32,000 nucleotides of DNA from Acaryochloris thomasi RCC1774 (GCF_003231495.1 NZ_PQWO01000025.1:1-32000); one strand, 5' to 3'; positions 3,027-32,000 are shown, numbered from the stretch's first letter. Numbers and translations are program-made. The notes: generated from the letters alone by a model not told the origin.

Positions 3027-3032
3027 ATGCAA

Positions 3033-3070
3033 AAGTTATGAGTTTTGTATGTTGAGCTTTGAGTTTGGGA
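3033..3070 (+). repeat. TGAGTTT-rich dispersed repeat, copy R1
   Basis: aagttatgagttttgtatgttgagctttgagtttggga, directly after the pfkA stop. It resembles copies at 14917-14954 and 26985-27021. Confidence 0.5.
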
Positions 3071-3121
3071 GAGGCCAGAGATTGGGCGATAGATCGCCAG
3101 ATGTTCTGGGTTTGCTGAGTT

Positions 3122-4767: not shown

Positions 4768-5436
4768 TTGGTAAATGAAGTGAATATTCCGCTGGATAGT
4801 TATGCGGAATGTAAATTCAATAGCAAAAAAGCTAAATATCAATTTACCGGAGAGTTGGAAGAGTTACGGCAAGCAAGAAATGACATTGAGCATAAGGAAG
4901 CTTCTCTTAATAAAGATGCAGTTAATAAATTCCTGGGTGTCTCATTCCGATTCTTAGATGATTTTGTGAGTCGAGAGCTAGGACTAAGTTTGTCTGAGAA
5001 GTTAGAAGAACTTGATGAACTTCGATGGGAAGAGATGATTGAAGCAGGTATAGAAGAAATACCTGAGCAAGACAGCTACCAAACGCTCTCTCTTGCTTTC
5101 CTCTTGTACATTAAACATATGTCAGATCGGGGTATACCACTTCATCCTAAGGAAAGAGTTGATCATTCATTTTTTACTTGCGAAGTATGTGGTGAAGAAG
5201 CAGTTGTTCTACCCGATCCAAGGTCCTACTCTACGATCACTTACTGCTACAATTGTCGCGCTAAATATGAAGGTCATGCGTGTGCAAGATGTGAGCAGAT
5301 TTACATAGAATATTTAGGTGAATGGGAAAAAGGCGACATCCCACCTGAGCATCCTGATTTGAAAAGTCTTTTGAACTCTGGAGAAGATGACATGTCTTTT
5401 TGTCAAATGTGTCAAGGTTGGATTGCAGATCAGTAA
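4768..5436 (+). CDS. C-terminal fragment of the split HEPN-like protein: RNDIEH (Rx4H) helix plus four CxxC pairs
   Basis: This frame is already open from 4669 (TFLKARLAKHDEKLIYTNRKNGHTVSCVEAIGRL...). Contains LRQARNDIEHK, then CEVC...CYNC and CARC...CQMC. The region is AT-rich and has no GCGATCGC. Confidence 0.55.
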   Translation: MVNEVNIPLDSYAECKFNSKKAKYQFTGELEELRQARNDIEHKEASLNKDAVNKFLGVSFRFLDDFVSRELGLSLSEKLEELDELRWEEMIEAGIEEIPEQDSYQTLSLAFLLYIKHMSDRGIPLHPKERVDHSFFTCEVCGEEAVVLPDPRSYSTITYCYNCRAKYEGHACARCEQIYIEYLGEWEKGDIPPEHPDLKSLLNSGEDDMSFCQMCQGWIADQ

Positions 5437-5958: not shown

Positions 5959-6360
5959 ATGAGCCTTGCCCTAATTGACACGGACATCACCTCCTTCATC
6001 TTCAAAGGTAGCGACTATGCCGATCCTTACCTGCCACTTCTGAGCGATCAGGAATTAGCACTTTCTTTCATGACCATCGCTGAACTGTTTCAGTGGGCGA
6101 TCCTGCGTCAGTGGGGCAAGCGTCGCTTTTCGCAGCTAGAGCAATACCTATCGAATTACCTCATCATTCCGGTTGATCAACCGCTTTGTCGGGAATGGGC
6201 GCAGGTGCGGAGCGATCGCCAGAGTGCAGGACGACCGATTTCCCCTCAGGATGCTTGGATTGCCGCCACAGCTTTACGCCACGACTTACCGCTAGTCACT
6301 CACAACATCAAAGATTTTGCAGGAATTTCCAATCTACAGCTCATGATGCCTCCACTCTAA
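5959..6360 (+). CDS. vapC: PIN-domain ribonuclease, VapC-family toxin
   Basis: N-terminal LIDTDI, an acidic residue in TIAELF, PISPQDAWIAATAL and LVTHNIKDF match the PIN/VapC pattern. Confidence 0.85.
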   Translation: MSLALIDTDITSFIFKGSDYADPYLPLLSDQELALSFMTIAELFQWAILRQWGKRRFSQLEQYLSNYLIIPVDQPLCREWAQVRSDRQSAGRPISPQDAWIAATALRHDLPLVTHNIKDFAGISNLQLMMPPL

Positions 6361-6498: not shown

Positions 6499-6678
6499 AT
6501 GATCAACACAAAACCGAAACCTGCTCAACAACCATCCGTTCCTCAGCGGAAAAAGCATTGTAAGCGCAAAGACTTACGAAGACAAAATTTGAAAATAAAT
6601 CCTCCGAAGTGGTCTGTTCATCTACAGCGTCCTACCCCGACTTCTGAGAAGTTAAGTGATTGGGCAGAAGCGTCCTAG
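6499..6678 (+). CDS. Small, very basic hypothetical protein (59 aa)
   Basis: AGGAGG (6485-6490) lies 8 nt before ATG 6499. Product MINTKPKPAQQPSVPQRKKHCKRKDLRRQNLK... No homology recognised. Confidence 0.3.
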   Translation: MINTKPKPAQQPSVPQRKKHCKRKDLRRQNLKINPPKWSVHLQRPTPTSEKLSDWAEAS

Positions 6679-6712
6679 AATAACGGCCCCCCTAGACAGG
6701 AGAGAACGAAGG

Positions 6713-7165
6713 ATGAGATCACAACCCCACTCCGGCTTGAATTTCCAAGGCAAAATTATTGCTCTATGGACGACGTTTTTGTTGGGGATGCTCTTTCATA
6801 CCCAGTTGGCTCTAATGCCGCTATTTCATGGTATTGATGTCACCCAGTCCCATACCCATGAATATTTAGAATTGTCCTCTATCCTGTGGTTAATGCTGGG
6901 GATCTTTGCCCTGCCCATGCTGGCTATTGTGGCGATAGCCTTTACCGCGTCGAGACGATTTCGACAGCTCCACTTCGGCCTCACTGTGTTTTTTACTGTG
7001 AGCAATCTCCTGCATTTTGTGTCAGACGTATTGGTCTCTGTACCCAGCTATCAACTCTTTTTGATGGCCCTCTTATTTGCGATCGGACTGCTTCTTAATT
7101 TAGTCTCCTATCAATGGATCAGAGAGGGAAACCGTGATCGCCAACTCTTCAAGGCAGTCTTGTGA
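6713..7165 (+). CDS. Hypothetical integral membrane protein (about 4 TM segments)
   Basis: Four hydrophobic stretches in the translation. ATG 6713 is preferred over the 6656 start because the upstream part is highly charged and overlaps the small ORF. Confidence 0.6.
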   Translation: MRSQPHSGLNFQGKIIALWTTFLLGMLFHTQLALMPLFHGIDVTQSHTHEYLELSSILWLMLGIFALPMLAIVAIAFTASRRFRQLHFGLTVFFTVSNLLHFVSDVLVSVPSYQLFLMALLFAIGLLLNLVSYQWIREGNRDRQLFKAVL

Positions 7166-10060: not shown

Positions 10061-10091
10061 TCATAGAGAAAGAACTTGATGAACTTGTGAG
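10060..10091 (-). promoter_or_regulatory. Recurrent promoter-like module, instance C (minus strand, overlapping the ackA 3' end)
   Basis: The reverse complement reads CTCACAAGTTCATCAAGTT-ctttctc-TATGAT. It lies in the last codons and stop of ackA and points toward the hsp20 remnant and the methyltransferase gene. Confidence 0.45.
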
Positions 10092-11293
10092 GGATATGAA
10101 GTTAGGCAGCGCCAACAATCTTGGGCGATCGCCCAGTCTTCCTGGGTATGAATCACCAGCACGCGAACGCTAGATTCAGTAGTGGCAATATCCTGATCCA
10201 CTGGGTCGCTGTTGTTCTTAGCTGCGTCAATCTTCAATCCCAAAAACGCTAAAGCGTTACAGATTTCTGCGCGTACTCCTGCTGAATGTTCTCCAATTCC
10301 TGCAGTGAAGACAATGACATCGATACCGCCCAAGCTCATTAACATTGAACCCAGGCAGGATTGTAAGCGATGGAGATAGAGATCCCGTGCTAGTTTGGCC
10401 TGCTTGTTGCCCTGTGCGATCGCATCATCAATCTCGCGCATATCATGGGAGATCCCCGAAATGCCCTTGAGGCCAGATTCTTTATTGAGCATCTGATCAA
10501 GCTGATCGGCAGAATAGCCCTGGCGCATCAAGTGAATCAAAATGCCAGGATCAACCGCTCCCGACCGCGTACCCATCATCAATCCGTCTAACGGTGTATA
10601 TCCCATCGTGGTGTTGATGCTCCTACCACTCTTTACCGCCGTCAGAGAAGCCCCATTCCCTAGGTGACAAACGATCAATCGCTCCACCTCTCGCCCCAGG
10701 ATCTGAGCAGTCCGCTGAGTGCAGTACTGATGACTAATGCCGTGGAAGCCATAGCGACGAATGTCCTGCTCAATCCAGTTATAGGGGCCGGGATAGGTGG
10801 CGGCAATATCGGGGATGCGACTGTGAAAGGCGGTATCGAAAACAGCGATTTGAGGCACATTGCCAAGAAGCTCCTCTATGATTTCGATGCCTTCTAGGTT
10901 GGCCTCATTGTGGGTTGGCGCTAGGGGGATTAGGGATGCGATCTCATCCTTGACCTCATCCGTCACCACACTCGCTTGGTACTTCTGTCCTCCATGCACA
11001 ACCCGATGCCCCACAACATCAATCTCTTGCAGGTTTTGAATCACTTGAGTCCGTCCCTGCCAAAGTGTCATTAATAGATGCAGAAGAGCGTCAGCTCGAG
11101 AGACCGACAATAATTCCTCTTCTAGCTTCTCCCCCGCCGCAGTTCTGACAAGCAAGGCCGCATTATCTGGACGATGCCAATCCAGTTGAGCCTCCCAAAG
11201 TGGTGCTGGTGGAGCATCTGGGAACAACTCTTCAATCTTGTACAGGCAACACTTATGGCTACTGGACCCTGCATTGAGGACTAAAATCTTCAT
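10061..11293 (-). CDS. ackA: Acetate kinase
   Basis: MKILVLNAGSSSHK start, VGHRVVHGG, AFDTAFH, YGFHGISH and FTAGIGE are canonical AckA motifs. Confidence 0.92.
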   Translation of the reverse strand: MKILVLNAGSSSHKCCLYKIEELFPDAPPAPLWEAQLDWHRPDNAALLVRTAAGEKLEEELLSVSRADALLHLLMTLWQGRTQVIQNLQEIDVVGHRVVHGGQKYQASVVTDEVKDEIASLIPLAPTHNEANLEGIEIIEELLGNVPQIAVFDTAFHSRIPDIAATYPGPYNWIEQDIRRYGFHGISHQYCTQRTAQILGREVERLIVCHLGNGASLTAVKSGRSINTTMGYTPLDGLMMGTRSGAVDPGILIHLMRQGYSADQLDQMLNKESGLKGISGISHDMREIDDAIAQGNKQAKLARDLYLHRLQSCLGSMLMSLGGIDVIVFTAGIGEHSAGVRAEICNALAFLGLKIDAAKNNSDPVDQDIATTESSVRVLVIHTQEDWAIAQDCWRCLTSYPSQVHQVLSL

Positions 11294-11567
11294 TGCCGCT
11301 CATGCCCCTGTATCGTCTTCAGACTTAAATCGCGTGGCTCTAACTTAATCCTTTCCTCACCGGTCTCAGGACACCAAACCCATTCTTTTTTGGACTCTCC
11401 CCCTAGAAGTGGAGCCACTGCGTATTCCTGGCGGAACGCTTCGCGACGGGGCGGGTTCCCTGACTCCACAGGACATAGCCAGTAGCGTGGGGGCTGGGGG
11501 GGCCAGTGAAACGCTTCAGGCCACCTAGAACATCTTGGATCGACAGTAGAGGAAAGAGCTGAGCGCC

Positions 11568-14042
11568 TTATTCACAACCCTCAGAGTAAGGCCACTTCCA
11601 ATCTACAATCTCATCTTGGTCTTTACCATGCTCATGGGCATAGGCCAGACATTCGATAATCTTGTTGCGCATTCTTTCCTTGGCATGACCTGCCGCTGAA
11701 CCCAGCTTGGGCACCCGATCGATCACATCAATCACCAAATTAAAACGATCTACCTCATTCTTAATCGCCAGCTCCAGCGGCGTATTGATGTTGCCCTGTT
11801 CCTTGTAGCCGCGCACATGAATGCGCTCTTGGTTGGAGCGACGGTAGACAAGCTTGTGAATCAGCCAGGGATAGCCATGAAAGTTAAAGATAATCGGCTT
11901 GTCGGTTGTAAATAGAGAATCAAAGTCCCGATTCGATAACCCGTGGGGATGCTCCCCTTCCGACACCAGCTTGAATAGATCCACCACATTTACAAACCGC
12001 ACTTTGAGCCAAGGAAATTCATCTCGTAAAATCGCCGTTGCTGCTAGCGACTCCATCGTCGGAATATCGCCACAACAGGCCATCACCACATCCGGTTCAT
12101 CCGGCTCAGTACCGCAGTCATCATTGCTGGCCCAGTCCCAAATGCCGATTCCCTTCGTGCAGTGGGCAACTGCCTCATCCATCGATAGATACTGCAGGTG
12201 ATTCTGCTTGTCAGAGATGATCACATTGATGTAATCCACACTGCGGAAGCAATGATCTGCCACCGACAGCAAACAATTAGCATCCGGTGGGAAGTAGACC
12301 CGCACTACGTCTGGACTCTTGTTCGTTACCAAATCCACATAGCCCGGATCTTGGTGGCTAAAGCCATTATGGTCTTGTCGCCACACTAGCGAAGAGAGCA
12401 GAATATTTAACGAGGAAACTGACCGTCGCCAAGGGACATGATTCCGGCAGATATCTAACCATTTGGCATGTTGGTTAAACATCGAATCGACCACGTGAGC
12501 AAAGGCTTCGTAGGTGTGAAAGAGGCCGTGGCGTCCGGTGAGCAGGTAGGTTTCCAGCCAGCCCTGCAGCGTATGCTCGCTGAGCATCTCCATTACGCGG
12601 CCATCACGGGCGAGTTCGGTCCCGTCTTCATCTTCGGGATATATATCCGCCATCCAAACTTTCTTGGTGACTTGATAGACATCCTGGAGGCGATTCGAGG
12701 CGGTTTCATCCGGTCCCATCAACCGGAAGTTGTCAGGATTGTCCCGCATGATCTCCCGCATGAATAGACCCAGTGCCTTCGTATTCTCAAACTCCACGTT
12801 GCCGCGCTGGTCGCCGATATCGATGGCAAGATCATTGAAGTCGGGCAGCTTCAGCGCCTTCCGCAATAGGCCGCCATTGGCGTGGGGGTTGGACCCCATA
12901 CGACGATTTCCTTCCGGTGCCAGTGCCTTCAGCTCTGGGATCAGTGCCCCAGATTCATCAAATAGCTCTTCCGGCTTGTAGCCGCGCATCCATTCTTCGA
13001 GCTTAAGCAGGTGATCAGGGTTGTCGTGCATCCCACCCATCGGGACTTGATGCGATCTCCAAAAATCTTCGACCTTCTTTCCGTCTACTTCTTGTGGTCC
13101 CGTCCAGCCCTTCGGAGTCCGCAGCACAATCATCGGCCAACGAGGGCGCTCAATCTTGCCCGTGGTGCGGGCTTCTTGCTGCACTTCCCGAATCTTGAGA
13201 ATGCACTCCTCCATGACCGCCGCCATTTTATGATGCATCTCTGCCGGATTCTTGCCCTCAACAAAATAGGGCGTGTAGCCATAGCCCTTGAACAGACACT
13301 CCAGCTCTTCATGGGAGATCCGGGCCAGAATCGTGGGGTTCGCAATCTTGTAGCCGTTCAGATTCAGAACCGGGAGCACGGCACCATCACGAACCGGGTT
13401 GATGAACTTATTAGAGTGCCAAGAGGTCGCCAGCGGCCCTGTCTCTGATTCACCATCACCCACCACACAGGTCACAATCAAATCCGGGTTGTCTAAAACT
13501 GCACCGTAGGCGTGGGAAACGCTATAGCCCAGCTCTCCGCCCTCATGAATGGACCCTGGTGTTTCAGGCGTTACGTGACTCCCGATAAAGCCAGGGAAGG
13601 AGAACTGCTTGAAGAACCGCTGCATTCCTTCGGCGTCTTCGCTTTTGTCGGGATAGATTTCAGAATAGGTTCCTTCCAAATACACCGGCCCCAAAACACC
13701 GGGTGCTCCATGACCTGGACCAGCCATGAAGATCATGTCGAGGTCGTATTTTTTGATCAGCCGATTGCAGTGAATATAGGTAAAACTCAATGCGGGAGAG
13801 GCTCCCCAATGTCCCAGTAGTCGATGCTTCACCTGCTCAGCCTTTAGTGGCTCCTTGAGCAGGGGGTTTTCTCGTAAGTAAATCATCCCAACGGCGAGAT
13901 AGTTGCAGGCTCGCCAATAAGCATTAATCTGCTTCAACTCGCTTTCAGTTAAGGATTCTGACTGGGAATCTGTGGGTTGAATAGGTGTTTGAACCATGAG
14001 TCTCTCTATTGAAATTGCTGCAAGTTCGGCATTTGAGGGCAC
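11568..14042 (-). CDS. xfp: Phosphoketolase (xylulose-5-P/fructose-6-P phosphoketolase)
   Basis: 824 aa. [32 protein letters not shown] and [15 protein letters not shown] match the XFP family. All plus-strand ORFs between 11899 and 13820 are shadow ORFs. Confidence 0.93.
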
Positions 14043-23402: not shown

Positions 23403-23822
23403 ATGTATGAATTTGAGGAGCTAACTTTTACTATGGAGTACCTCTACTTTTTTGCGAATGCTAGCCTCACACTTGAAGCGATCGACTATTTGATTAAACG
23501 CGATCACCTTCCCTTGGATTACGTTACTGTTGTCCATTCACCTGAGGGATGGTTGATTCGGATGAAATTTGACGGATGCATCGAGCCTAAGTTGGAGGCC
23601 GATTTCCTGGCGGTAATGAATGAATTTGGCCATCCCTACGAGGCTTCTATGCCGATGGTTATAGCTTTGGAGGGTATAGATACAGGCCAGACAACGGAAG
23701 AAATCTTGCATCGACATCTAATTTCAGTCATTGCTCACGGAAAACCAGATCGGAAAAACATCGAAGTCTTTCAGCAAGAGTTCGTCCAAGGGGCATCTAT
23801 CTGCCCAAAAAGTCTCAAATAG
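23403..23822 (+). CDS. Hypothetical protein (139 aa)
   Basis: Long ORF with no overlapping competitor. No family recognised. Confidence 0.5.
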   Translation: MYEFEELTFTMEYLYFFANASLTLEAIDYLIKRDHLPLDYVTVVHSPEGWLIRMKFDGCIEPKLEADFLAVMNEFGHPYEASMPMVIALEGIDTGQTTEEILHRHLISVIAHGKPDRKNIEVFQQEFVQGASICPKSLK

Positions 23823-23848: not shown

Positions 23849-24280
23849 ATGATTAATACTAATTCAAGCCAACATTCCGAACAGACTCAGACTGAGTTCG
23901 GTTCTTGGGATGCTCCTCTTACAGAACCGCTATCGGGGTCTCAGCCGACGGATCATCCATCACCGATCTCATCTCCCCCCTTTCTCAGCCCCGCAGGTGT
24001 CCCAATGCCCTGTGTAATTTCTCTGGCAGGGAGTCCAACCGTGCAGTCTCTAATGCATTGGGGATTGAAGCTCTCTCCGAAGAGTCTCCATGTTGCGGAA
24101 TGGAGAGATGCTCTGGCGCTTTTGATGTGGCAAGCCTCTGTCCTCCGGTTGTCTCAGATGCTCATTGAAGACGAGTTGAAGCTCAAAGTCTGCCGTAAAG
24201 GAACGCTGAGAACTCAAATTCAGAATGCGTTAGCACTCCTCTTTTGGTTGGGGAATGATGGTGTAATGAGCCATGCTTAA
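23849..24280 (+). CDS. Hypothetical protein (143 aa) with a Pro/Ser-rich N-terminal half
   Basis: GGGAGG lies 8 nt before the ATG. No family recognised. Confidence 0.45.
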   Translation: MINTNSSQHSEQTQTEFGSWDAPLTEPLSGSQPTDHPSPISSPPFLSPAGVPMPCVISLAGSPTVQSLMHWGLKLSPKSLHVAEWRDALALLMWQASVLRLSQMLIEDELKLKVCRKGTLRTQIQNALALLFWLGNDGVMSHA

Positions 24281-24311: not shown

Positions 24312-25352
24312 ATGCAAACGGGTTCGCTGTCTTGTCCGATTCCCATTGAGCAATACCCGCATGTTCTTCTGGCCCATGGGGGCGGTGGCAAATTAATGCA
24401 TCAGCTCATTGAGCAGATGTTTATGAGATTGTTCCAGCCAGAGGTGCGTTGTCAGCACGATTCGGCAGTGTTGGAGATGCCGTCAGGACGCCTCGCCTTT
24501 ACGACCGATTCCTATGTGGTACATCCCCTATTTTTCCCTGGGGGTGATATTGGTTCTTTGGCCGTTCACGGGACCATCAACGATCTAGCAATGGCGGGTG
24601 CTCGTCCCCTATATCTCAGCGCCAGCTTCATTCTAGAAGAGGGGCTAGCGATGGATACGCTCTGGCAAGTTGTGCAATCAATGCATCAGGCCGCTCAGCA
24701 GGCTAATGTACGGGTGGTAACAGGAGACACAAAGGTTGTAGAACGAGGCAAGGGCGACGGTCTGTTTATTAATACAGCGGGCGTTGGTGTGATTGAGCAC
24801 GAGCAAGTGATCCATCCGCAGTCTGTACGCCCCGGAGATGTCGTGTTGCTCAACGGTGACGTTGGACGCCACGGCATTGCCGTAATCGCAGTTAGGGAAG
24901 GGCTAGAGTTTGAAAGCAATATTGAGAGCGATTCTGCTTTGCTCAATGATGTAGTGCTAAAGCTATTAGAGGCTGGGGTTGAGCTGCACTGTTTACGAGA
25001 TTTGACTCGGGGGGGGCTTGCGAGTGCGTTGAACGAGATTGCAGAAGCCGCAGGGGTTACAATCGCACTCCAAGAAACAAGCATTCCCGTCCGAAAAGAT
25101 GTGCAGGGAGCCTGTGAGATTCTTGGATTTGATCCGTTATATGTTGCTAACGAAGGACGATTTGTAGCATTTATCCCGCAAAAATCTGTTGATCTAGCCC
25201 TTTCCATTTTGCACAGCCAAAATCATCCCTTGGCCCAGGTTATTGGTCAAGTGACAGAGAGTTCAGCGGCTCGTGTCACTATCAAGAGCAGAATTGGAAC
25301 TCAGCGCATTGTTGACATGCTAAGTGGTGAACAGCTTCCCCGAATTTGCTAA
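24312..25352 (+). CDS. hypE: [NiFe]-hydrogenase maturation protein HypE
   Basis: LAHGGGG near the N-terminus, a PurM-like fold ([20 protein letters not shown]), and the diagnostic C-terminal PRIC. Confidence 0.9.
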
Positions 25353-25457
25353 GCGGCTAATGTCAGTTATGTAATTGTCTCGATAACAAACTTTTTGGGT
25401 TCTTCCCAGCTTTTGATGTCGCTTACTGCAGTCTTATGAGGTTATAGGTGTAGATAC

Positions 25458-25489
25458 TTCACAAGTTCCTCAAGTTATCGGTTTATAAA
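25458..25489 (+). promoter_or_regulatory. Recurrent promoter-like module, instance G (upstream of the N-ATPase operon)
   Basis: TTCACAAGTTCCTCAAGTT-atcggtt-TATAAA, about 60 nt before ATG 25550. Confidence 0.5.
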
Positions 25490-25495
25490 TCCTAA

Positions 25496-26983
<1,488 letters not shown>

Positions 26984-26984
26984 C

Positions 26985-27021
26985 GAGTTATGAGTTTTGA
27001 AGGATGAGTTTCGAGTTAGGA
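26985..27021 (+). repeat. TGAGTTT-rich dispersed repeat, copy R3
   Basis: gagttatgagttttgaaggatgagtttcgagttagga, directly after the atpD stop. This copy is the closest match to R2. Confidence 0.5.
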
Positions 27022-27052
27022 CTATCTTCATCTCTGAAATTTTTGTGAAATC

Positions 27053-27430
27053 ATGCAAATCCAGATCTTTCTGCCGAATGAAATTTTGATTGACCAGTCT
27101 GTGAGTAAAGTCACGGCAGAGGCTGAGCATGGCACATTTTGTCTGTTGCCGCACCACATTGATTGTTTAGCAATTCTGGTTCCTGGCATTGTGACGCTGG
27201 TTGCTGACCAGGGCGAGGAAACCTTTGTCGCAGTAGATGAAGGGATTTTAGTGAAGTCTGGATCAGAGGTTCGGATCTCGACTCGCAATGCAGCGCAGGG
27301 GACAGAGTTAAATTGCTTGAAACAGCAGGTTGAGCAACAGTTCCGTGCAATCGATGAACAAGAACGATTAACCCGGTCTGCCCTCGCTCAGTTAGAAGCA
27401 AGTTTGGCACGTTACTTTACTGCGCTGTAG
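27053..27430 (+). CDS. atpC: ATP synthase epsilon subunit (N-ATPase)
   Basis: 125 aa. The N-terminal beta-sandwich pattern (ILIDQSVSKVTAEAEHGTFCLLPHHID) and its position after atpD support the call. Confidence 0.8.
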   Translation: MQIQIFLPNEILIDQSVSKVTAEAEHGTFCLLPHHIDCLAILVPGIVTLVADQGEETFVAVDEGILVKSGSEVRISTRNAAQGTELNCLKQQVEQQFRAIDEQERLTRSALAQLEASLARYFTAL

Positions 27431-27433
27431 GGA

Positions 27434-27754
27434 GTGGCATTGATGGGCAAACCACAACACCCAGAGGATTTGAATCCAACTAGAAAGGATGCGTTTCAAA
27501 GACAGGTCGAGGGTAAGGTTGACCGCAAAATCAAAGCGCGTCAACAGAAGAAGAGCGTCTGGTTTGGGTTAGGGATGTTTGGGTTAGTGGGGTGGTCGGT
27601 GGCGATTCCAACGCTGCTGGGCATTGCGCTGGGTGTGTGGCTCGACAGGCATATTTCTAGTCGCTATTCCTGGACTCTGATGATGTTGGTGATTGGGATG
27701 GGTTTAGGCTGCTTCAATGCCTGGTACTGGATCAGCAAGGAGAGCGGTCGATGA
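27434..27754 (+). CDS. atpQ: N-ATPase accessory membrane protein AtpQ (AtpI-like, 'F0F1-ATPase subunit, putative' family)
   Basis: Charged N-terminus followed by WFGLGMFGLVGWSVAIPTLLGIALGVWLD and SWTLMMLVIGMGLGCFNAWYW, the pattern I recall for AtpQ. The start could be ATG 27443. Confidence 0.7.
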   Translation: MALMGKPQHPEDLNPTRKDAFQRQVEGKVDRKIKARQQKKSVWFGLGMFGLVGWSVAIPTLLGIALGVWLDRHISSRYSWTLMMLVIGMGLGCFNAWYWISKESGR

Positions 27755-28980
27755 ATGAGACGGTTCTTCTTTATCTTGTCTTGCTGGTTGGGACAACCGT
27801 TGTGGTGTCTATTTTGATCAAGGCAGGGCTGGAACGGATCGGTGTAGCTCCGTTAGTGGGGTATGTGTTGCTTGGCTTTGTTTTACAACTTTTAGATAGT
27901 CGTGGTTTTCTAACCTCCAACACCGTCTTAGAAGTCTATGGTTTTCTGGCAGAGCTAGGCATTATCTCGTTACTGTTCCGAGTTGGCCTAGAGAGCAACC
28001 TCAGTGGATTATTACGTCAGTTACCCCACGCTTGCTTCCTGCTTACGGGGGATGTGCTGCTGAGCGGGTCTTTTGGTTTTGTCACAGCCTATTTCCTGTT
28101 GAAATTATCACTGATTCCCAGTCTGTTTATTAGCATTGCGCTGGTGGCAACGAGCGTGGGTATTTCGCTCAGCGTATGGCAAGAATCCCAGGCGCTCAAC
28201 TCAAAAAACGGAGAGTTACTCCTCGATATCGCTGAGATGGATGACATTGCGGCGATTATTCTCATGTCCTTATTGTTCGCAATTGCTCCGTTTTGGAATG
28301 GTGGTCAAGAAATAAGTTTCATTCCCCTTCTCGGGGAAGTGCTTGGACCGTTCCTATTAAAAGTTCTGATTTTTGGTACGTTCTGCTTGATCTTTTTCCG
28401 CTATATTGAGCACCCACTCACTCATTTTTTCAGCAAGATTGAGCCAGCCCCCGATCCGATGTTGATGGTTGCGGGGACTGGTTTTATGATTGCTGCTCTA
28501 GCTGGACTATTGGGTTTTTCCGTTGCTGTAGGGGCATTCTTTGCCGGACTGGCATTTAGCCGTGATCCAGAAGCCGTCAAACTGGATGCCTCTTTTGGAG
28601 CGCTGTACGAATTCTTTGTTCCCTTTTTCTTTGTCAATATTGGCTTGCAGATTAAGTTGCAGGCTCTGGAAACTGCGCTGGGATTGAGTGTACTGCTCCT
28701 GATCGTAGCACTGCTCGGTAAGCTCATTGGCATTGGGGGACTGATGTTGATCACTCGAAGCGAGGCTGCAAGTGCGACATTGTTGGGAATTAGTATGATT
28801 CCTCGTGCAGAAATTACGATGGTGATTATGCAGAGAGGGCGTGATTTAGGAGATTGGGCAGTATCGTCTCAAATTTTTGCTGGTATGGCCTTGGTTGCGA
28901 TCGCAACCTGCATCATCTCTCCAGTACTGCTATACCCCTTACTCAAGCAGTGGCCTCAAAAACAAGAGGTTAAAGCATGA
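27751..28980 (+). CDS. Cation:proton antiporter (Na+/H+ exchanger superfamily, CPA2-like, no KTN domain)
   Basis: 409 aa and about 11-12 TM segments. The N-terminal LLVGTTVVVSILIKAGLERIGVAPLVGYVLLGFVL is typical of Kef/NapA-type exchangers. The start ATG overlaps the atpQ stop and the stop overlaps the atpR start. Confidence 0.85.
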   Translation: MNETVLLYLVLLVGTTVVVSILIKAGLERIGVAPLVGYVLLGFVLQLLDSRGFLTSNTVLEVYGFLAELGIISLLFRVGLESNLSGLLRQLPHACFLLTGDVLLSGSFGFVTAYFLLKLSLIPSLFISIALVATSVGISLSVWQESQALNSKNGELLLDIAEMDDIAAIILMSLLFAIAPFWNGGQEISFIPLLGEVLGPFLLKVLIFGTFCLIFFRYIEHPLTHFFSKIEPAPDPMLMVAGTGFMIAALAGLLGFSVAVGAFFAGLAFSRDPEAVKLDASFGALYEFFVPFFFVNIGLQIKLQALETALGLSVLLLIVALLGKLIGIGGLMLITRSEAASATLLGISMIPRAEITMVIMQRGRDLGDWAVSSQIFAGMALVAIATCIISPVLLYPLLKQWPQKQEVKA

Positions 28981-29291
28981 CCGAAATCTCACCTACATTA
29001 ATCACTGCACTCTTGTTAGGGGGAGGCTTAGGGATACTCTACTTCGGCGGTTTGTGGTTCACCATTCAACAGCTAACCCACACAAAGAAACCTGTGGTAC
29101 TAATGTGGACCAGCTTCTTACTGCGTCTGGGAGCTGTGCTCGGCTTCTTTCATCTCATTCTTCAGCACGGCGCGACCGATCAATTGCTTGCGTTATTGCT
29201 GCTTTGCTTTCTAGGATTCCTCCTGGCTCGGAATCTTTTGATTAGCAGCGTTATACCCAAGAGGAGGCTAAAAAATGAATCTCACCCCTGA
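28977..29291 (+). CDS. atpR: N-ATPase accessory membrane protein AtpR
   Basis: About 100 aa with three hydrophobic helices, GGGLGILYFGGLWFTIQQL, and an arginine inside a membrane helix (SFLLRLGAVL), as described for AtpR. Confidence 0.7.
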   Translation: MTEISPTLITALLLGGGLGILYFGGLWFTIQQLTHTKKPVVLMWTSFLLRLGAVLGFFHLILQHGATDQLLALLLLCFLGFLLARNLLISSVIPKRRLKNESHP

Positions 29292-29979
29292 TCAAATTAT
29301 CATCTGGCAATGGGGAGCATTCTCTCTCAATGCCACGCTGCTTTTCACTTGGCTGGTCATGGGACTGCTGGTGATGGGTTCTTGGCTCATCACTCGTCAG
29401 CTCTCAAACTCGACGCAGATATCACGAGGGCAGAACCTTCTAGAGGTTATCGTTCTGGGGATTAGCAACCAGATCCAGGAAATTAGCGAGCAACCGCCTG
29501 GACCTTATCTACCCTTTGTAGGGACGCTCTTTATTTTTATTGCGTTTTCAAATCTGTTCAGCGTGGTTCCGGGCTATCAGCCTCCGACAGGGTCTCTCTC
29601 GACCACAACGGCATTGGCGCTCTGTGTTTTCTGTGCCGTCCCCCTCTATGGGATCAAGAAAAAAGGAGTTTGGGGCTATCTGCAGCAATATCTACAGCCG
29701 AGTCCGGTAATGCTGCCCTTTAATATCATTGGAGACTTCTCGCGAATTGTAGCCCTTGCGGTTCGCCTGTTCGGCAATGTCATGAGTGGCACCATGATTG
29801 TCGCTATTCTGCTGTCCGTGGCTCCGTTGCTATTCCCCGTGGTCATGCAAATGCTGGGGTTATTAACCGGATTGATTCAAGCCTATATTTTCGCCATTCT
29901 GGCAATGGTGTTTATCGCGGCAGCGAGCCAGGTAGACAAGAAACAACATCCGACTATCAGTGAGGAAACCCATGGATAA
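29275..29979 (+). CDS. atpB: ATP synthase F0 subunit a (N-ATPase)
   Basis: The conserved stator arginine region LAVRLFGNVMSGTMI, and 5-6 TM segments. Confidence 0.85.
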   Translation: MNLTPDQIIIWQWGAFSLNATLLFTWLVMGLLVMGSWLITRQLSNSTQISRGQNLLEVIVLGISNQIQEISEQPPGPYLPFVGTLFIFIAFSNLFSVVPGYQPPTGSLSTTTALALCVFCAVPLYGIKKKGVWGYLQQYLQPSPVMLPFNIIGDFSRIVALAVRLFGNVMSGTMIVAILLSVAPLLFPVVMQMLGLLTGLIQAYIFAILAMVFIAAASQVDKKQHPTISEETHG

Positions 29980-30262
29980 TATTGCCTTAATCGGGATGGC
30001 TTCGATTGTGATGTCAGGATTCACTATAGCCATTGGTTCCATTGGTCCTGCCTTGGGAGAGGGGCGAGCGTTATCCCAAGCGCTCAGCGCCATTGCTCAA
30101 CAGCCCGATGAAGCTAATACCATCACGCGGGTGCTGTTTGTCGGCATGGCGCTGGTGGAATCAACAGCCATTTACTGCTTTGTAATTACGCTAATTTTGA
30201 TTTTTGCCAATCCCTTTTGGGCCTACGTCGTAGAGCAGGCCATTACGGCGGGGGGAGGGTAG
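29972..30262 (+). CDS. atpE: ATP synthase F0 subunit c (N-ATPase) with a Na+-type ligand set
   Basis: Helical hairpin GSIGPALGEGRA...QQPD...MALVESTAIYCFVITLILIFANPF. ATG 29972, preceded by GAGGAA, overlaps the atpB stop. Confidence 0.85.
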   Translation: MDNIALIGMASIVMSGFTIAIGSIGPALGEGRALSQALSAIAQQPDEANTITRVLFVGMALVESTAIYCFVITLILIFANPFWAYVVEQAITAGGG

Positions 30263-30265
30263 GAA

Positions 30266-31054
30266 ATGCTAATCGATCCCTTAACCACCTTTGCCCAAAT
30301 CATCAATTTTCTGATTTTGGTGGCATTGCTGAAGCGGTTCCTCTATGTTCCGATTACCCGCGTGATGAAACAGCGAGAGCACCGCATTGCAATGCAGCTA
30401 CAGGAGGCTGCAGCCAAAGAGGAAATGGCTCAACAAGAAGCGGAACGATATCGCCAAATGCAGCGTGATCTAGAGGCTCAGCAGGCTCAATTCCTAGCGC
30501 AGGCCCAACTGGATGCGGATGAGCATCGACAAATGTTGCTGCAGAACGCACGGGAAGATGTGGATAGCATCCATGCTACATGGACTGCGGCGGTCGAGTG
30601 CGAGAAGCAGGTGTTTTTGGGGGCACTCAGGCAGCGGGCGGGGCAGCAGGTGGCGACAACGGTGCGCGGCGTGCTTCGAGACTTGGCGAACACGAATTTA
30701 GAGCTGCAGATAGTCGAAGCTTTTATCGTTCATTTGAGTCACCTCACCGTGCAGGAACAAGAGACGCTAGAGGCGGCCTTATCAACCTCAAATGCTCAAG
30801 AACTGGTTATTCAGAGTACATTCCCGATTTCGGCTGTAGACCAAGCCAGGGTACTGGAAGCATTGTATGTGCAGACCACGACTCTGGTAGGTCTTGGCAT
30901 GGGCCAGTTTGTAATCGTTCCCGATCTGATGTGTGGGATTGAACTGAAGATTCCGGGATACAAGCTGGCTTGGAACCTAGCGCACTACCTTGAGCGCCTA
31001 GAAGAGAATTTAGCACGGGTTTTGGATAGTACCGCATTAGCGGAGGACGGATAA
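30266..31054 (+). CDS. atpF: ATP synthase F0 subunit b, extended form (no separate delta gene follows)
   Basis: N-terminal TM segment (INFLILVALLKRFLYVPI), then a long charged helix. At 262 aa it is longer than a canonical b subunit. The alpha gene starts 4 nt later. Confidence 0.7.
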   Translation: MLIDPLTTFAQIINFLILVALLKRFLYVPITRVMKQREHRIAMQLQEAAAKEEMAQQEAERYRQMQRDLEAQQAQFLAQAQLDADEHRQMLLQNAREDVDSIHATWTAAVECEKQVFLGALRQRAGQQVATTVRGVLRDLANTNLELQIVEAFIVHLSHLTVQEQETLEAALSTSNAQELVIQSTFPISAVDQARVLEALYVQTTTLVGLGMGQFVIVPDLMCGIELKIPGYKLAWNLAHYLERLEENLARVLDSTALAEDG

Positions 31055-31057
31055 ATA

Positions 31058-32000
31058 ATGGCGACGCCCGAGCTTGATATTTTGAAGCCGGTTTTGGAGG
31101 ACGTTTTTGCAGCCTTTGAGCAGGTTGAAGGTCAGTATCCCTTTGAATTGCGAAGTCAGGAAGTAGGGACGGTAACCAGTTTGGGCCACGGTATTGCGCG
31201 GGCGACGGGGCTGACCCATGTTCAATCCGAGGAGCTGGTGAAATTTCCTGGAGATCGCATGGGCATTGCCTTCAACCTCGATCCAGAGGAAGTGGGCCTA
31301 ATTTTGCTCGATGATAGCCGTTCTTTGAAGGCGGGATGCGAAGTTCAGCGCACTGGGCGGGTCTTAGACGTACCAGTGGGAGAAGCGTTTTTAGGTCGCG
31401 TAGTGGATGCGACCGGACGCCCCCTCGATCACCGAGGGATAGTGAGGACGTTTGAGCGTCGCGCCGTTGAACGGGAAGCTCCAGCAATTATGGATCGTGC
31501 TCCGGTGACGGTACCGCTGCAGACGGGGATTAAGGTGATTGATGCGCTGATTCCCATTGGTCGGGGACAGCGGGAACTGATTTTAGGCGATCGCCAAACG
31601 GGTAAAACAGCCATTGCCATCGATACGATCCTCAACCAGAAGGGCAAGGACATCATCTGTATCTATTGCGCCATCGGCCAGCGCAGTTCTGCCGTAGCTA
31701 AGTTAATTGCGGAATTACGAGATCGCAATGCAATGGACTACTGCATCGTAGTAGTGGCTGGAGGCGAAGCGACACCCGGCCTGCAATACATTACCCCCTA
31801 CGCCGCCACCACAATGGCAGAGTACTTCATGGAACAGGGGCGAGACGTGTTGATCATCTACGACGATCTGATTCAACATGCCCGTGCCTATCGTGAACTG
31901 TCGCTGCTGCTGCGCCGCCCGCCTGGTCGTGAAGCCTTCCCTGGCGATATTTTCTATATTCATGCTCGGTTATTAGAGCGGGCCACTCATCTGCACCCTG
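31058..32000 (+). CDS. atpA: ATP synthase alpha subunit (N-ATPase), 5' part; continues beyond the window
   Basis: My own translation from ATG 31058 gives MATPELDIL...[12 protein letters not shown]...[18 protein letters not shown]...IYCAIGQR...[42 protein letters not shown]. It is absent from the ORF track because there is no stop in the window. Confidence 0.9.

What the first reader, a model, noticed from the sequence alone, without database searches (positions are those of the whole stretch)
27434..29291. Cation:proton antiporter gene embedded between atpQ and atpR of an N-type ATPase operon, with ATGA overlaps on both sides
The operon order here is atpD-atpC-atpQ-[antiporter]-atpR-atpB-atpE-atpF-atpA. 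It starts with beta, has AtpQ and AtpR, lacks delta and has a long b subunit. That matches the N-ATPase architecture described as atpDCQRBEFAG, except for one extra gene.

The extra gene is a 409-aa CPA-type exchanger (27751-28980) placed between atpQ and atpR. Its ATG overlaps the atpQ stop (ATGA at 27751-27754). Its stop overlaps the atpR start (ATGA at 28977-28980). This arrangement implies co-transcription and probably translational coupling.

A secondary Na+(K+)/H+ exchanger built into a putative Na+-translocating ATPase operon suggests a functional module. Possible roles are ion recycling, pH homeostasis during Na+ extrusion, or a physical partnership with the AtpQ/AtpR accessory proteins. 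I am not aware of this being described.
Basis: partly seen in the sequence, partly recalled or inferred. Interest (0 to 1): 0.68.

Follow-up and report, generated by a model that had tools for sequence, protein, structure and literature searches.

The report
Sodium/proton antiporter inside N-ATPase operon
A NapA-type sodium/proton exchanger gene sits between two accessory genes of a sodium-type "N-ATPase" operon, and this is an old, widely shared operon variant found in many cyanobacteria and several other phyla, pointing to an untested functional partnership between the pump and the exchanger.

Summary
The window carries atpD-atpC-atpQ-[CPA2 antiporter]-atpR-atpB-atpE-atpF-atpA' with 4-nt ATGA overlaps on both sides of the antiporter gene. 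All flanking genes match N-ATPase models.

The antiporter most resembles Thermus NapA. It keeps the D-D...K signature of electrogenic Na+/H+ exchangers and lacks the Kef-type K+ features. The c subunit carries the full Na+-binding motif.

The arrangement is not a strain accident. atpQ lies just upstream of the antiporter in 26 of 44 genomic loci, covering Acaryochloris, Leptolyngbyaceae, Spirulina, Pleurocapsales, Prochloraceae and Nostocales. It also occurs in Abyssubacteria, Syntrophobacteria, Desulfatiglandaceae and Zixibacteria MAGs, and in 8 of 74 metagenomic N-ATPase loci. The start-before-stop overlap with atpQ is conserved across phyla. Antiporter-bearing operons all have Na+-type c subunits. 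One locus shows a decaying antiporter remnant.

The insertion itself was mentioned in passing in 2010 for Acaryochloris marina, but I found no functional or comparative treatment.

Best reading: a co-translated Na+-pump plus electrogenic Na+/H+ exchanger module for ion and pH homeostasis. The mechanism is inferred, not shown. Verdict: a new variant of a known kind, of moderate interest.

The parts
25353..25525 (+). Intergenic leader between hypE and atpD. This is the probable promoter region of the operon.
   Evidence: About 170-200 nt of AT-rich non-coding DNA. A terminator-like hairpin follows hypE at 25395-25409. No Rfam family matches here. The promoter itself is inferred, not shown.
25526..26983 (+). 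atpD, N-ATPase beta subunit. The true start is probably the ATG about 8 codons into the listed ORF.
   Evidence: TIGR03305 'alternate F1F0 ATPase beta' scores 802 bits against a cut-off of 752. Pfam hit PF00006.
27053..27430 (+). atpC, epsilon subunit.
   Evidence: TIGR03166 scores 135.7 bits against a cut-off of 100.1. Pfam hit PF02823.
27434..27754 (+). atpQ (AtpI/AtpZ-like small membrane protein).
   Evidence: PF09527, E = 4.7e-15. TIGR02230 scores 139.7 bits against a cut-off of 46.7.
27737..27754 (+). atpQ/CPA junction. It contains AAGGAG (27737-27742, formed by the K-E codons near the AtpQ C-terminus), the CPA ATG at 27751, and the atpQ TGA at 27752-27754.
   Evidence: Sequence. In 22 of 26 related genomic loci the CPA start lies 8 nt before the atpQ stop, in the pattern RTGAnTGA. 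This holds in deep-branching metagenomic loci as well (L083, L126) and in four non-cyanobacterial MAGs.
27751..28980 (+). NapA-type CPA2 cation:proton antiporter, 409 aa. Key residues are T134, S135, V136, D164, D165, K324, R352 and E354.
   Evidence: PF00999, E = 1.8e-42. The best solved relative is Thermus NapA (4BWZ/5BZ2/5BZ3), E about 1e-25. The AF2 model has pLDDT 85 and pTM 0.86, and matches 5BZ2 with TM 0.79/0.83. The key residues are present in every homologue that has a residue at those alignment columns (37-38 of the 39 sequences aligned) and in 62/62 of alignment A2.
28964..28980 (+). CPA/atpR junction. It contains AAGAGG (28964-28969), the atpR ATG at 28977, and the CPA TGA at 28978-28980.
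   Evidence: Sequence. The same -4 overlap occurs in Acaryochloris, Leptolyngbyaceae, Desulfatiglandaceae and L126. Elsewhere the junction varies: -8, -1, +2, 55-92 nt, or kilobase insertions.
28977..29291 (+). atpR, the N-ATPase-specific small membrane protein. It has arginines R50 and R85 within hydrophobic, presumably membrane-spanning, stretches.
   Evidence: PF12966 scores 72.7 bits against 26. TIGR03165 scores 56.9 against 55.5.
29275..29979 (+). atpB, subunit a.
   Evidence: TIGR03306 'alternate F1F0 subunit A' scores 349 bits against a cut-off of 302.
29960..30262 (+). atpE, subunit c, with the two-carboxylate Na+ signature (E34 in helix 1; E67-S68-T69...Y72 in helix 2).
   Evidence: TIGR03322 scores 145.6 bits against 130.85.
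30266..31054 (+). atpF, long subunit b (262 aa). No delta gene follows it.
   Evidence: PF00430. TIGR03321 scores 217 bits, just under its cut-off of 224.7. NF011044 scores 317 bits against a cut-off of 339.
31058..32000 (+). atpA, alpha subunit, 5' part. It runs off the window end.
   Evidence: PF02874 and PF00006.

Best explanation
The 409-aa gene is a long-standing member of a distinct N-ATPase operon variant, atpDC-Q-[napA-like CPA2]-R-BEFAG. It is not a recent insertion. It is most likely transcribed with the ATPase genes from the promoter upstream of atpD, and translated by ribosomes that terminate on atpQ and re-initiate at the overlapping start codon.

The ATPase has a Na+-binding c ring. 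The exchanger has the sequence signature of an electrogenic (2 H+ : 1 Na+) NapA-type Na+/H+ antiporter.

The proposed mechanism is inferred. The two proteins close a Na+/H+ circuit in one membrane. When the ATPase hydrolyses ATP to expel Na+, it builds membrane potential. The antiporter uses that potential to let H+ back in while expelling further Na+. This relieves the back-pressure on a high-ion-per-ATP pump and acidifies the cytoplasm. The net effect is ATP-driven Na+ extrusion plus pH homeostasis that does not depend on respiration or photosynthesis. That would be useful in saline or alkaline habitats and in the dark under anoxia.

Shown here: gene identities, overlaps, conservation, co-inheritance and residue signatures. 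Inferred: co-transcription, ion specificity, stoichiometry, direction of operation and physiological role.
For: (1) Gene identities and overlaps are established.

(2) The arrangement is conserved.
- atpQ lies immediately upstream of the CPA in 26 of 44 genomic loci that encode relatives of the CPA.
- The same operon occurs in Anabaena sp. CA, an Abyssubacteria MAG, a Syntrophobacteria MAG, a Desulfatiglandaceae MAG and a Zixibacteria MAG.
- It occurs in 8 of 74 assessable metagenomic N-ATPase loci.

(3) The atpQ/CPA junction is conserved. The CPA start codon lies 8 nt before the atpQ stop in 22 of 26 genomic loci, in deep-branching metagenomic loci L083 and L126, and in the four non-cyanobacterial MAGs L046, L133, L135 and L136.

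(4) The CPA is as conserved as subunit a and more conserved than AtpR or subunit b. Against Rivularia, for example, CPA is 58% identical, a is 66%, R is 42% and b is 37%. CPA distances track ATPase a+c+b distances, with Mantel r = 0.80 and 0 of 5000 permutations reaching that value.

(5) There is no GC discontinuity across the CPA, and no excess of promoter- or terminator-like sites beside it.

(6) The CPA is NapA-like. Sequence E is about 1e-25 to 4BWZ/5BZ2, and the model matches 5BZ2 with TM 0.79/0.83. Its CPA motif is A-T-S-V...D164-D165...K324. By the rules of Masrati 2018 (PMC6181914) this is the electrogenic, Na+-type pattern. It lacks KefC's QD motif and threonine (PMC11150392).

(7) All 25 CPA-bearing operons with a readable c subunit have E...ESTxxY. 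Among CPA-less operons only 24 of 40 have that exact pattern; one more has Q in helix 1, and 15 have T replaced by I, L or M. In the a+c+b tree the CPA-bearing operons sit only in the half that holds the Na+-motif operons.

(8) Further ion-transport genes join at the same site in Pleurocapsales. A P-type cation ATPase lies between the CPA and atpR in L013 and L017.

(9) The B. pseudomallei N-ATPase has a c17 ring and moves 5.7 ions per ATP (PMC5376962). By inference, such a pump stalls at a low ion-motive force and would benefit from a partner that consumes membrane potential.
Against: No expression, transport or phenotype data exist for any member of this CPA clade.

Ion specificity rules based on motifs are correlative. 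Some NapA-clade proteins also move K+.

Many N-ATPase operons work without the CPA. These include Picosynechococcus PCC 7002, the nine-gene Halothece/Aphanothece operon (PMC9374696), and 65 of 74 metagenomic loci. In addition, the CPA has been lost (remnant in L056) or moved to solo positions. The partnership is therefore dispensable.

The Aphanothece enzyme has also been described as a Na+-dependent ATP synthase, so the direction of operation is open.

In PCC 7002, N-ATPase transcripts did not rise at high salt (PMC3468840).

The c-ring size of the cyanobacterial enzyme is unknown.

Deep nodes of my NJ trees are weakly supported.
Confidence: 0.55

Rival explanations
1. Synthase-mode Na+ cycle. 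The antiporter uses the proton-motive force made by respiration or photosynthesis to expel Na+ and keep the cytoplasm acidified. The N-ATPase then lets Na+ back in and makes ATP. The pair would be an alkaline/saline bypass of the H+-ATP synthase, or a high-ratio gear that makes ATP at low pmf.
For: The gene pairing and Na+ signatures are the same as for the best explanation. The Aphanothece homologue is titled a 'Na+-dependent F1F0-ATP synthase' (reference list of PMC8949462). A high ion/ATP ratio, as in the c17 ring, thermodynamically favours synthesis at ordinary membrane potentials; this is inference.
Against: N-ATPases are generally regarded as pumps (PMC2881411; PMC5376962). The operon always accompanies a normal F-ATPase. 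The neighbouring genes in the window and in relatives are for fermentation and glycolysis, which supply ATP rather than pmf. There is no direct evidence for either direction in this clade.
Confidence: 0.18
2. Co-regulation only. The antiporter and the ATPase are two independent Na+-extrusion devices kept in one transcription unit so that both are induced by the same stress. There is no energetic or physical interdependence.
For: Solo copies of the same CPA clade exist and appear intact: L019/L049, which is flanked by P-II genes and IS605 orfB; the Anabaenopsis, Anabaena CCY0017 and Desulfobacteraceae loci. CPA-less N-ATPase operons are common. Other cargo also accumulates at the same spot, including a P-type ATPase, toxin-antitoxin genes, IS605 and defence genes.
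Against: Simple co-regulation does not need a position inside the operon between two accessory subunit genes. Nor does it need an 8-nt overlap preserved across phyla. The strict association with Na+-type c subunits and conservation at the level of subunit a suggest more than hitch-hiking. They do not prove it.
Confidence: 0.17
3. The CPA is a structural or assembly partner of the N-ATPase membrane sector. It would bind AtpQ/AtpR or subunit a and form a supercomplex.
For: The only evidence is positional. The gene sits between atpQ and atpR and is translationally coupled to atpQ.
Against: No AtpQ-CPA or CPA-AtpR fusion proteins appear among about 240 listed homologues. All but one truncated entry are 362-428 aa long. 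The CPA/atpR junction is variable and tolerates kilobase insertions. Solo copies persist. The canonical enzyme assembles without the CPA.
Confidence: 0.06
4. The protein is a K+/H+ exchanger or a Kef-like K+ efflux system that balances K+ while the ATPase handles Na+.
For: JGI names many homologues 'Kef-type K+ transport system membrane component KefB'. There are weak NCBIfam hits to KefB/KefC, at 30-36 bits against cut-offs of 752-804. Some NapA-clade proteins move K+; this is from my own knowledge.
Against: The protein has DD, not the QD motif. It has valine, not threonine, at motif position 4. It has no RCK/KTN domain. Its structural and sequence best match is NapA, ahead of KefC.
Confidence: 0.04

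Closest known systems
Canonical N-ATPase operon atpDCQRBEFAG (Dibrova, Galperin & Mulkidjanian 2010, PMC2881411)
   Same: It has the same gene order, AtpQ and AtpR, no delta subunit, a long b subunit, and a c subunit with Glu in both helices plus ESTxxY. It is also laterally mobile and often plasmid-borne.
   Different: In the window a 409-aa CPA2 gene lies between atpQ and atpR and overlaps both. In canonical proteobacterial operons atpQ and atpR overlap each other directly.
Acaryochloris marina MBIC11017 plasmid pREB4 Na+-ATPase operon ('single gene insertion' of Dibrova 2010; gene map in PMC8949462)
   Same: The architecture is identical, and hypE is also nearby. The CPA is 78% identical and subunit a is 83% identical. 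It has the same -4 overlap with atpR.
   Different: A. marina has ppsA between hypE and atpD, an 8-nt rather than a 4-nt atpQ/CPA overlap, and a 140-nt gap before atpB. The published work does not identify or discuss the inserted gene in the text that I could read.
Thermus thermophilus NapA (PDB 4BWZ, 5BZ2, 5BZ3), an electrogenic Na+/H+ antiporter of the CPA2 group
   Same: The fold matches (TM 0.79-0.83). All core residues are shared: T126/S127, D156/D157, K305 and R331/E333 in NapA correspond to T134/S135, D164/D165, K324 and R352/E354 here.
   Different: Identity is only about 26%. The proteins belong to different clades. As far as is known, NapA is a stand-alone gene. No transport data exist for the operon-embedded clade.
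Aphanothece halophytica / Halothece PCC 7418 and Picosynechococcus PCC 7002 Na+-ATPase operons
   Same: These are cyanobacterial N-ATPases with Na+-type c subunits. The Aphanothece enzyme has been linked experimentally to salt tolerance (cited in PMC8949462 and PMC9374696).
   Different: They have nine genes and no antiporter. In my a+c+b tree PCC 7002 nests beside CPA-bearing Nostocales operons (bootstrap 94), which is compatible with secondary loss.
Enterococcus hirae V-type Na+-ATPase ntp operon, which carries ntpJ, a K+ uptake component (from my own knowledge, not checked here)
   Same: It is a precedent for a secondary cation transporter gene carried inside the operon of a primary Na+-pumping rotary ATPase.
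   Different: The ATPase type is different (V-type), the transporter family is different (Ktr), and the gene sits at the operon end. NtpJ was reported to work independently of the ATPase.

Membership tests
N-ATPase (N-type F1Fo ATPase operon) | Gene order atpD-atpC-atpQ-atpR-atpB-atpE-atpF-atpA-atpG | tested here: met
   The order D-C-Q-[CPA]-R-B-E-F-A is seen. There is one extra gene. atpG lies beyond the window end but is present in the syntenic A. marina, Anabaena CA, Desulfatiglandaceae and Zixibacteria loci.
N-ATPase (N-type F1Fo ATPase operon) | Presence of AtpR (PF12966) with membrane arginines | tested here: met
   PF12966 scores 72.7 bits against a cut-off of 26. TIGR03165 scores 56.9 against 55.5. 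R50 and R85 are present.
N-ATPase (N-type F1Fo ATPase operon) | Presence of AtpQ (AtpI-like, PF09527/TIGR02230) | tested here: met
   TIGR02230 scores 139.7 bits against a cut-off of 46.7.
N-ATPase (N-type F1Fo ATPase operon) | No delta subunit; long b subunit | tested here: met
   atpF encodes 262 aa and ends at 31054. atpA starts at 31058, with no OSCP gene between them.
N-ATPase (N-type F1Fo ATPase operon) | Subunits fall in the 'alternate F1F0' clade | tested here: met
   beta, a, c and epsilon score above the TIGR03305, TIGR03306, TIGR03322 and TIGR03166 cut-offs. Subunit b scores 217.4 against 224.7, just below.
N-ATPase (N-type F1Fo ATPase operon) | c subunit with Glu in helix 1 and the ESTxxY Na+ motif | tested here: met
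   E34, E67, S68, T69 and Y72 are present.
N-ATPase (N-type F1Fo ATPase operon) | Always a second copy beside a normal F-type ATPase in the genome | not testable with these tools
   Only a 32-kb window is available, and no second atp operon lies within it.
CPA2, NapA-type electrogenic Na+/H+ antiporter | Na_H_Exchanger domain and NhaA/NapA fold | tested here: met
   PF00999, E = 1.8e-42, full length. The model has pLDDT 85 and its best structural match is NapA 5BZ2, TM 0.79/0.83.
CPA2, NapA-type electrogenic Na+/H+ antiporter | CPA motif: Asp-Asp on the TM5 equivalent, Lys on the TM10 equivalent, and no Glu5/Arg8 pair (Masrati 2018) | tested here: met
   D164, D165 and K324 are present, with I160 at position 5. 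These residues are invariant in 62 homologues.
CPA2, NapA-type electrogenic Na+/H+ antiporter | Curated CPA2 subfamily model TIGR00932 | tested here: inconclusive
   It is the best NCBIfam hit, but it scores 107.8 bits against a cut-off of 238.3.
CPA2, NapA-type electrogenic Na+/H+ antiporter | Measured Na+(Li+)/H+ exchange with 2 H+ : 1 Na+ stoichiometry | not testable with these tools
   This needs transport assays.
Kef-type K+/H+ exchanger (KefB/KefC/KEA) | QD motif and Thr at motif position 4 | tested here: not met
   The protein has DD (164-165) and V136. The rule comes from PMC11150392 and PMC6181914.
Kef-type K+/H+ exchanger (KefB/KefC/KEA) | C-terminal RCK/KTN regulatory domain | tested here: not met
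   The protein is 409 aa, and the PF00999 match ends at residue 399.

The most novel reading that the evidence does not exclude
The N-ATPase and its embedded 2 H+ : 1 Na+ antiporter work as one obligatorily coupled energy converter, perhaps even as a supercomplex organised by AtpQ/AtpR. Na+ would cycle locally between the c ring and the exchanger. The pair would then behave as an ATP-driven H+ translocator, or as an ATP synthase, with about twice the ion/ATP ratio of the ATPase alone. This would be a 'gearbox' that lets fermenting or energy-starved cells keep a membrane potential and pH gradient at very low ATP cost, or make ATP at very low pmf. Under this reading, an ancestral N-ATPase lineage carried this partner from early on, and the canonical nine-gene operons within that lineage are secondary losses.
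Probability: 0.1. Interest if true: 0.8.

Novelty: new variant of a known kind. Interest (0 to 1): 0.5.

Why it matters
The physiological role of N-ATPases is still unsettled. It is unclear whether they are pumps or synthases, whether they move Na+ or H+, and why they always occur as a second copy.

A sizeable, ancient sub-lineage of these operons carries a dedicated electrogenic Na+/H+ exchanger that is translationally coupled to atpQ. This gives a concrete, testable handle on the ion circuit the enzyme works in. It is testable in a culturable organism, Acaryochloris marina, and by the heterologous-expression route already used for the Aphanothece enzyme.

The finding also defines a coherent, uncharacterised NapA-like clade whose genomic context predicts its substrate. 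It adds a marker, CPA present or absent, for subdividing N-ATPase operons in genome annotation and in ecological surveys of saline, alkaline and anoxic habitats.

Tried and rejected
- **Rfam scan of the whole window**. I was looking for a Na+ riboswitch or another leader RNA upstream of atpD or the CPA. Nothing reached threshold.
- **Promoter and terminator consensus scan of 25000-32000**. Counts were no higher than in shuffles, and no terminator flanks the CPA. The result is uninformative about an internal promoter.
- **CPA relic in the 115-nt atpQ-atpR spacer of PCC 7002**. An ATGA overlap and a 14-codon ORF are there, but I saw no similarity to the CPA. Not claimed.
- **CPA relic in L054**, a close CPA-less relative. 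Similarity stops at the atpQ stop. The few matching codons after it are not significant. Not claimed.
- **L056 does hold a real remnant**. Its N-terminal stretch ILIKAVLERICIPPLVGYLLLG matches the window CPA, and a 45-aa match to residues 218-261 follows. The remnant is frame-shifted.
- **Supplementary Fig. S2 of Dibrova 2010** is not held. Soontharapirakkul 2011 and Swingley 2008 are not held either. I therefore could not see how the inserted gene was labelled there.
- **The first bootstrap script timed out**. I redid it with a faster distance routine.
- **An off-by-one error in the c-subunit motif table** was corrected.
- **The Abyssubacteria row** is mislabelled 'none' by my script, because of a -1 gap. 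It does carry the CPA.
- **Kef-like K+ efflux** was considered and rejected on motif and domain grounds.
- **A recent insertion** was rejected on composition and on distribution.
Full report
**What is in the window**

- atpD 25526-26983
- atpC 27053-27430
- atpQ 27434-27754
- a 409-aa ORF at 27751-28980
- atpR 28977-29291
- atpB 29275-29979
- atpE 29960-30262
- atpF 30266-31054
- the 5' part of atpA from 31058 to the window end

ATGA at 27751-27754 joins the atpQ stop to the start of the extra gene. ATGA at 28977-28980 joins the extra gene's stop to the atpR start. Shine-Dalgarno-like AAGGAG and AAGAGG lie 8 and 7 nt upstream of these two starts. The first of them is formed by the K-E codons near the AtpQ C-terminus.

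Pfam and NCBIfam place every flanking gene in the 'alternate F1F0' (N-ATPase) families at or above curated cut-offs. Subunit b is the exception, falling just under its cut-off. AtpQ matches PF09527 and TIGR02230. AtpR matches PF12966 and TIGR03165. There is no delta gene, and b is long at 262 aa.

The c subunit has E34 in helix 1 and E67-S68-T69..Y72 in helix 2. This is the two-carboxylate Na+-binding pattern described for N-ATPases (PMC2881411).

**What the extra gene is**

It is a full-length Na_H_Exchanger protein (PF00999, E = 1.8e-42).

Its only solved-structure relatives by sequence are the three Thermus thermophilus NapA entries (4BWZ, 5BZ2, 5BZ3; E about 1e-25). An AlphaFold2 model built on 62 homologues has pLDDT 85 and pTM 0.86. 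Its best structural match is inward-facing NapA (5BZ2, TM 0.79/0.83), ahead of NHA2, KefC and NhaP.

The NapA core residues all align:
- T134/S135 in the unwound helix
- D164/D165
- K324
- R352/E354

In the 39-sequence locus alignment they are present in every sequence that has a residue at those columns (37-38 sequences), and they are invariant in 62/62 homologues of alignment A2.

In the eight-position CPA motif of Masrati et al. 2018 (PMC6181914) the protein reads A-T-S-V ... I ... D-D ... K. Asp at position 6, Asp at 7 and Lys at 8 form the pattern those authors associate with electrogenic CPA2s. A non-polar residue at position 4 goes with Na+ selectivity in CPA2s.

KefC, the K+/H+ exchanger, instead has a strictly conserved QD motif, a K+-coordinating threonine where NapA has valine, and C-terminal RCK domains (PMC11150392). 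None of these is present here.

I therefore file the protein as a NapA-like CPA2. It is predicted, not shown, to be an electrogenic Na+(Li+)/H+ antiporter. The curated CPA2 model TIGR00932 is its best NCBIfam hit but scores below the cut-off.

**Is the arrangement an accident?**

No. A scan of one genome per species for relatives of the protein returned 44 loci. tblastn with the window's proteins shows atpQ immediately upstream of the CPA in 26 of them. These 26 include:
- Acaryochloris (three loci, including plasmid pREB4 of A. marina MBIC11017; CPA 78% identical)
- Leptolyngbyaceae
- Spirulina
- Prochloraceae
- many Pleurocapsales (Xenococcus, Pleurocapsa, Waterburya)
- Rivularia

Look-ups of individual homologues add Anabaena sp. 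CA. They also add MAGs labelled Candidatus Abyssubacteria, Syntrophobacteria, Desulfatiglandaceae and Zixibacteria. All of these have atpD-C-Q-CPA-R-B-E-F(-A-G).

An unbiased look from the ATPase side used a metagenome scan with an AtpQ alignment. It gave 80 loci, of which 74 could be assessed:
- 8 carry a CPA after atpQ
- 65 are canonical Q-R(-B)
- 1 is truncated

The variant is therefore a minority among N-ATPase operons overall, but it is widespread.

**The junctions**

In 22 of the 26 genomic loci the CPA start codon (ATG or GTG) lies 8 nt before the atpQ stop, in the pattern RTGAnTGA. The same overlap is seen in metagenomic loci whose CPAs are only 38-50% identical to the window's (L083, L126), and in L046, L133, L135 and L136. 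The window has a derived 4-nt version.

The CPA/atpR junction is looser. It is -4 in the window, Acaryochloris, Leptolyngbyaceae, Desulfatiglandaceae and L126. It is -8 in Zixibacteria, and -1 to +2 in Rivularia, Anabaena and Abyssubacteria. It is 55-92 nt in some Pleurocapsales and in Syntrophobacteria.

In a few genomes it holds kilobases of extra genes:
- a 918-931-aa P-type cation ATPase (L013, L017)
- a DUF6163-like small membrane protein (L010, L027)
- an IS605 orfB (L027)
- a PIN toxin pair (L015)
- GmrSD plus HEPN (L013)

The CPA plus P-type ATPase pair may correspond to the 'two-gene insertion' that Dibrova et al. saw in Cyanothece. I could not check this.

**History**

The CPA region has the same G+C content as the neighbouring membrane-subunit genes.

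The CPA is as conserved as subunit a, and more conserved than AtpR or b, across the same pairs. CPA distances correlate with a+c+b distances (Mantel r = 0.80; 0 of 5000 permutations as high). Shared species history contributes to this correlation, so it is supportive only.

In NJ trees of the CPA, operon-embedded members occupy both the crown and the deepest branches of the clade. Solo copies nest among them. Examples are Waterburya copy b, Anabaenopsis, Anabaena CCY0017, an Acidobacteriota MAG and the Deinococcota group.

In an a+c+b tree of 48 operons, all CPA-bearing operons fall in one of the two halves of the midpoint-rooted tree. That half is itself poorly supported (bootstrap 13). The other half holds Legionella, Polymorphobacter and the I/L-variant c subunits that are in the tree, and has no CPA-bearing operon. 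Within the CPA-bearing half, CPA-bearing and CPA-less operons are interleaved. PCC 7002, which lacks the CPA, groups with the CPA-bearing Nostocales operons at bootstrap 94.

One metagenomic locus, L056, retains a frame-shifted, internally deleted CPA remnant between atpQ and atpR.

Taken together, these observations favour an old acquisition followed by repeated loss and occasional relocation. However, the deep nodes are weakly supported (bootstraps 9-55), and several gains cannot be excluded.

**Link to sodium**

All 25 CPA-bearing operons with a readable c subunit have E...ESTxxY. Of 40 CPA-less operons, 24 have that pattern, one has Q in helix 1, and 15 have the threonine replaced by I, L or M. 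These counts are not phylogenetically independent. Still, the CPA is never found with an incomplete Na+ site.

**How it probably works (inference)**

A rotary ATPase with a Na+ c ring and an electrogenic 2 H+ : 1 Na+ exchanger in the same membrane form a closed Na+/H+ circuit.

In pump mode, ATP hydrolysis expels Na+ and charges the membrane. The exchanger then uses that potential to import H+ and expel more Na+. This would relieve back-pressure on the pump. It is relevant if the ring is large, as in B. pseudomallei (c17, 5.7 ions per ATP; PMC5376962). It would also hold cytoplasmic pH down in alkaline or saline water, and would not need respiration or photosynthesis.

The gene neighbourhood fits an ATP-supplied, fermentative setting:
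- The window carries hypD, hypE, phosphofructokinase, phosphoketolase and acetate kinase.
- A. marina pREB4 has hypE and ppsA upstream, and its Na+-ATPase co-varies with hox genes (PMC8949462).
- A PEP synthase/PPDK-type gene also precedes the operon in the Abyssubacteria and Desulfatiglandaceae MAGs.

The main rival is the reverse cycle, in which the exchanger builds a sodium-motive force from pmf and the N-ATPase makes ATP. The Aphanothece enzyme has been called a Na+-dependent ATP synthase.

Other rivals are mere co-regulation of two independent Na+ exporters, a structural role for the CPA, and a K+/H+ function. I rate these lower, for the reasons given in the rival-explanation entries.

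**Comparison with what is known**

The operon is a member of the N-ATPase family by every defining feature I could test. The one feature I could not test is co-occurrence with a normal F-ATPase.

The embedded gene resembles NapA but is only about 26% identical to it and belongs to an uncharacterised clade.

[quoted passage not shown] RefSeq annotates that gene as a cation:proton antiporter. A 2022 Acaryochloris paper maps the region without discussing the gene. Six full-text searches found no paper that identifies, surveys or interprets an antiporter inside N-ATPase operons. The library does not cover subscription journals, so an earlier mention cannot be excluded.

**Verdict**

The feature is not wholly undescribed.

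To my knowledge, the following points are new:
- the identification of the gene as NapA-type
- its breadth across cyanobacterial orders and at least three other phyla
- the conserved overlap with atpQ
- the exclusive association with Na+-type c subunits
- the evidence for loss and relocation

I class it as a new variant of a known kind, with interest about 0.5.

Noticed in passing
L045 1210-3723 (A. marina pREB4); L046 1032-2862 (Abyssubacteria); L135 414-2816 (Desulfatiglandaceae): A PEP synthase / pyruvate-phosphate-dikinase-type gene lies directly or closely upstream of atpD in three very distant CPA-bearing N-ATPase loci. GAPDH, Usp, PfkB, transketolase and glycoside hydrolases also recur near these operons. 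This may be a conserved link to sugar and fermentation metabolism.
   Followed up: partly
L013 7224-9980; L017 3386-6181: In two Pleurocapsales genomes a 918-931-aa P-type cation ATPase (PF00122, PF00689, PF00690) is inserted between the CPA and atpR. This places a rotary ATPase, an antiporter and a P-type pump in one gene string. It may be the 'two-gene insertion' reported for Cyanothece in 2010.
   Followed up: partly
L056 438-900: A decayed CPA lies between atpQ and atpR. About 45 N-terminal residues are intact, then there is an internal deletion and a frameshift, followed by a match to residues 218-261. It is a snapshot of loss of the antiporter from the operon.
   Followed up: yes
L046 11906-13078: A baeRF-family gene (bacterial eRF1-like; PF18845 and relatives) sits between atpA and atpG of the Abyssubacteria N-ATPase operon.
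   Followed up: no
L013 10100-11652; L015 7071-8056; L027 3053-4204: The CPA/atpR gap is a hot spot for unrelated cargo. It holds a GmrSD-like nuclease plus a RiboL-PSP HEPN gene, a PIN-domain toxin with an upstream small ORF, and an IS605 orfB/TnpB.
   Followed up: partly
L010 7312-7704; L027 2527-2946: A 130-139-aa hydrophobic (probably membrane) protein directly follows the CPA in two Xenococcaceae loci. It has a weak DUF6163 match that is below the Pfam cut-off.
   Followed up: no
window 1872-4255, 10061-14042 (-), 24312-25352: The N-ATPase operon sits in a fermentation and hydrogenase-maturation neighbourhood. This comprises phosphofructokinase, HypD, acetate kinase, phosphoketolase (XFP) and HypE. 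It echoes the hox/hyp plus Na+-ATPase plasmid block of Acaryochloris marina.
   Followed up: partly
window 23403-23822 and 23849-24280: Two adjacent ORFs of 139 and 143 aa lie between the HlyD/MacB transporter genes and hypE. Neither has a Pfam match.
   Followed up: no
window 5959-6360: A PIN-domain (VapC-like) ORF. The neighbouring ORFs 4768-5436 and 6656-7165 have no Pfam match.
   Followed up: no
L050 4945-5065 (Picosynechococcus PCC 7002 pAQ7): The CPA-less PCC 7002 operon has a 115-nt AT-rich spacer between atpQ and atpR. It contains an ATGA start/stop overlap and a 14-codon ORF. In Legionella and Polymorphobacter, by contrast, atpQ and atpR overlap directly. The spacer could be a deletion scar, but I saw no similarity to the CPA.
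   Followed up: partly
L049 4965-9029: A solo paralogue of the CPA in a Waterburya-like MAG is flanked on both sides by P-II (GlnB-like) genes and IS605 orfB copies, with a 2TM protein after it.
   Followed up: no
L009 665-5330; L004, L006, L008, L010 downstream of the CPA; L055: In several Pleurocapsales and Spirulina genomes the operon is broken up. About 4.6 kb of unrelated ORFs, including a long repeat-rich one, separate atpD from atpC in L009. Unrelated genes follow the CPA instead of atpR in L004, L006, L008 and L010, and follow atpQ in L055. It is unclear whether the remaining atp genes lie elsewhere in these genomes.
   Followed up: no
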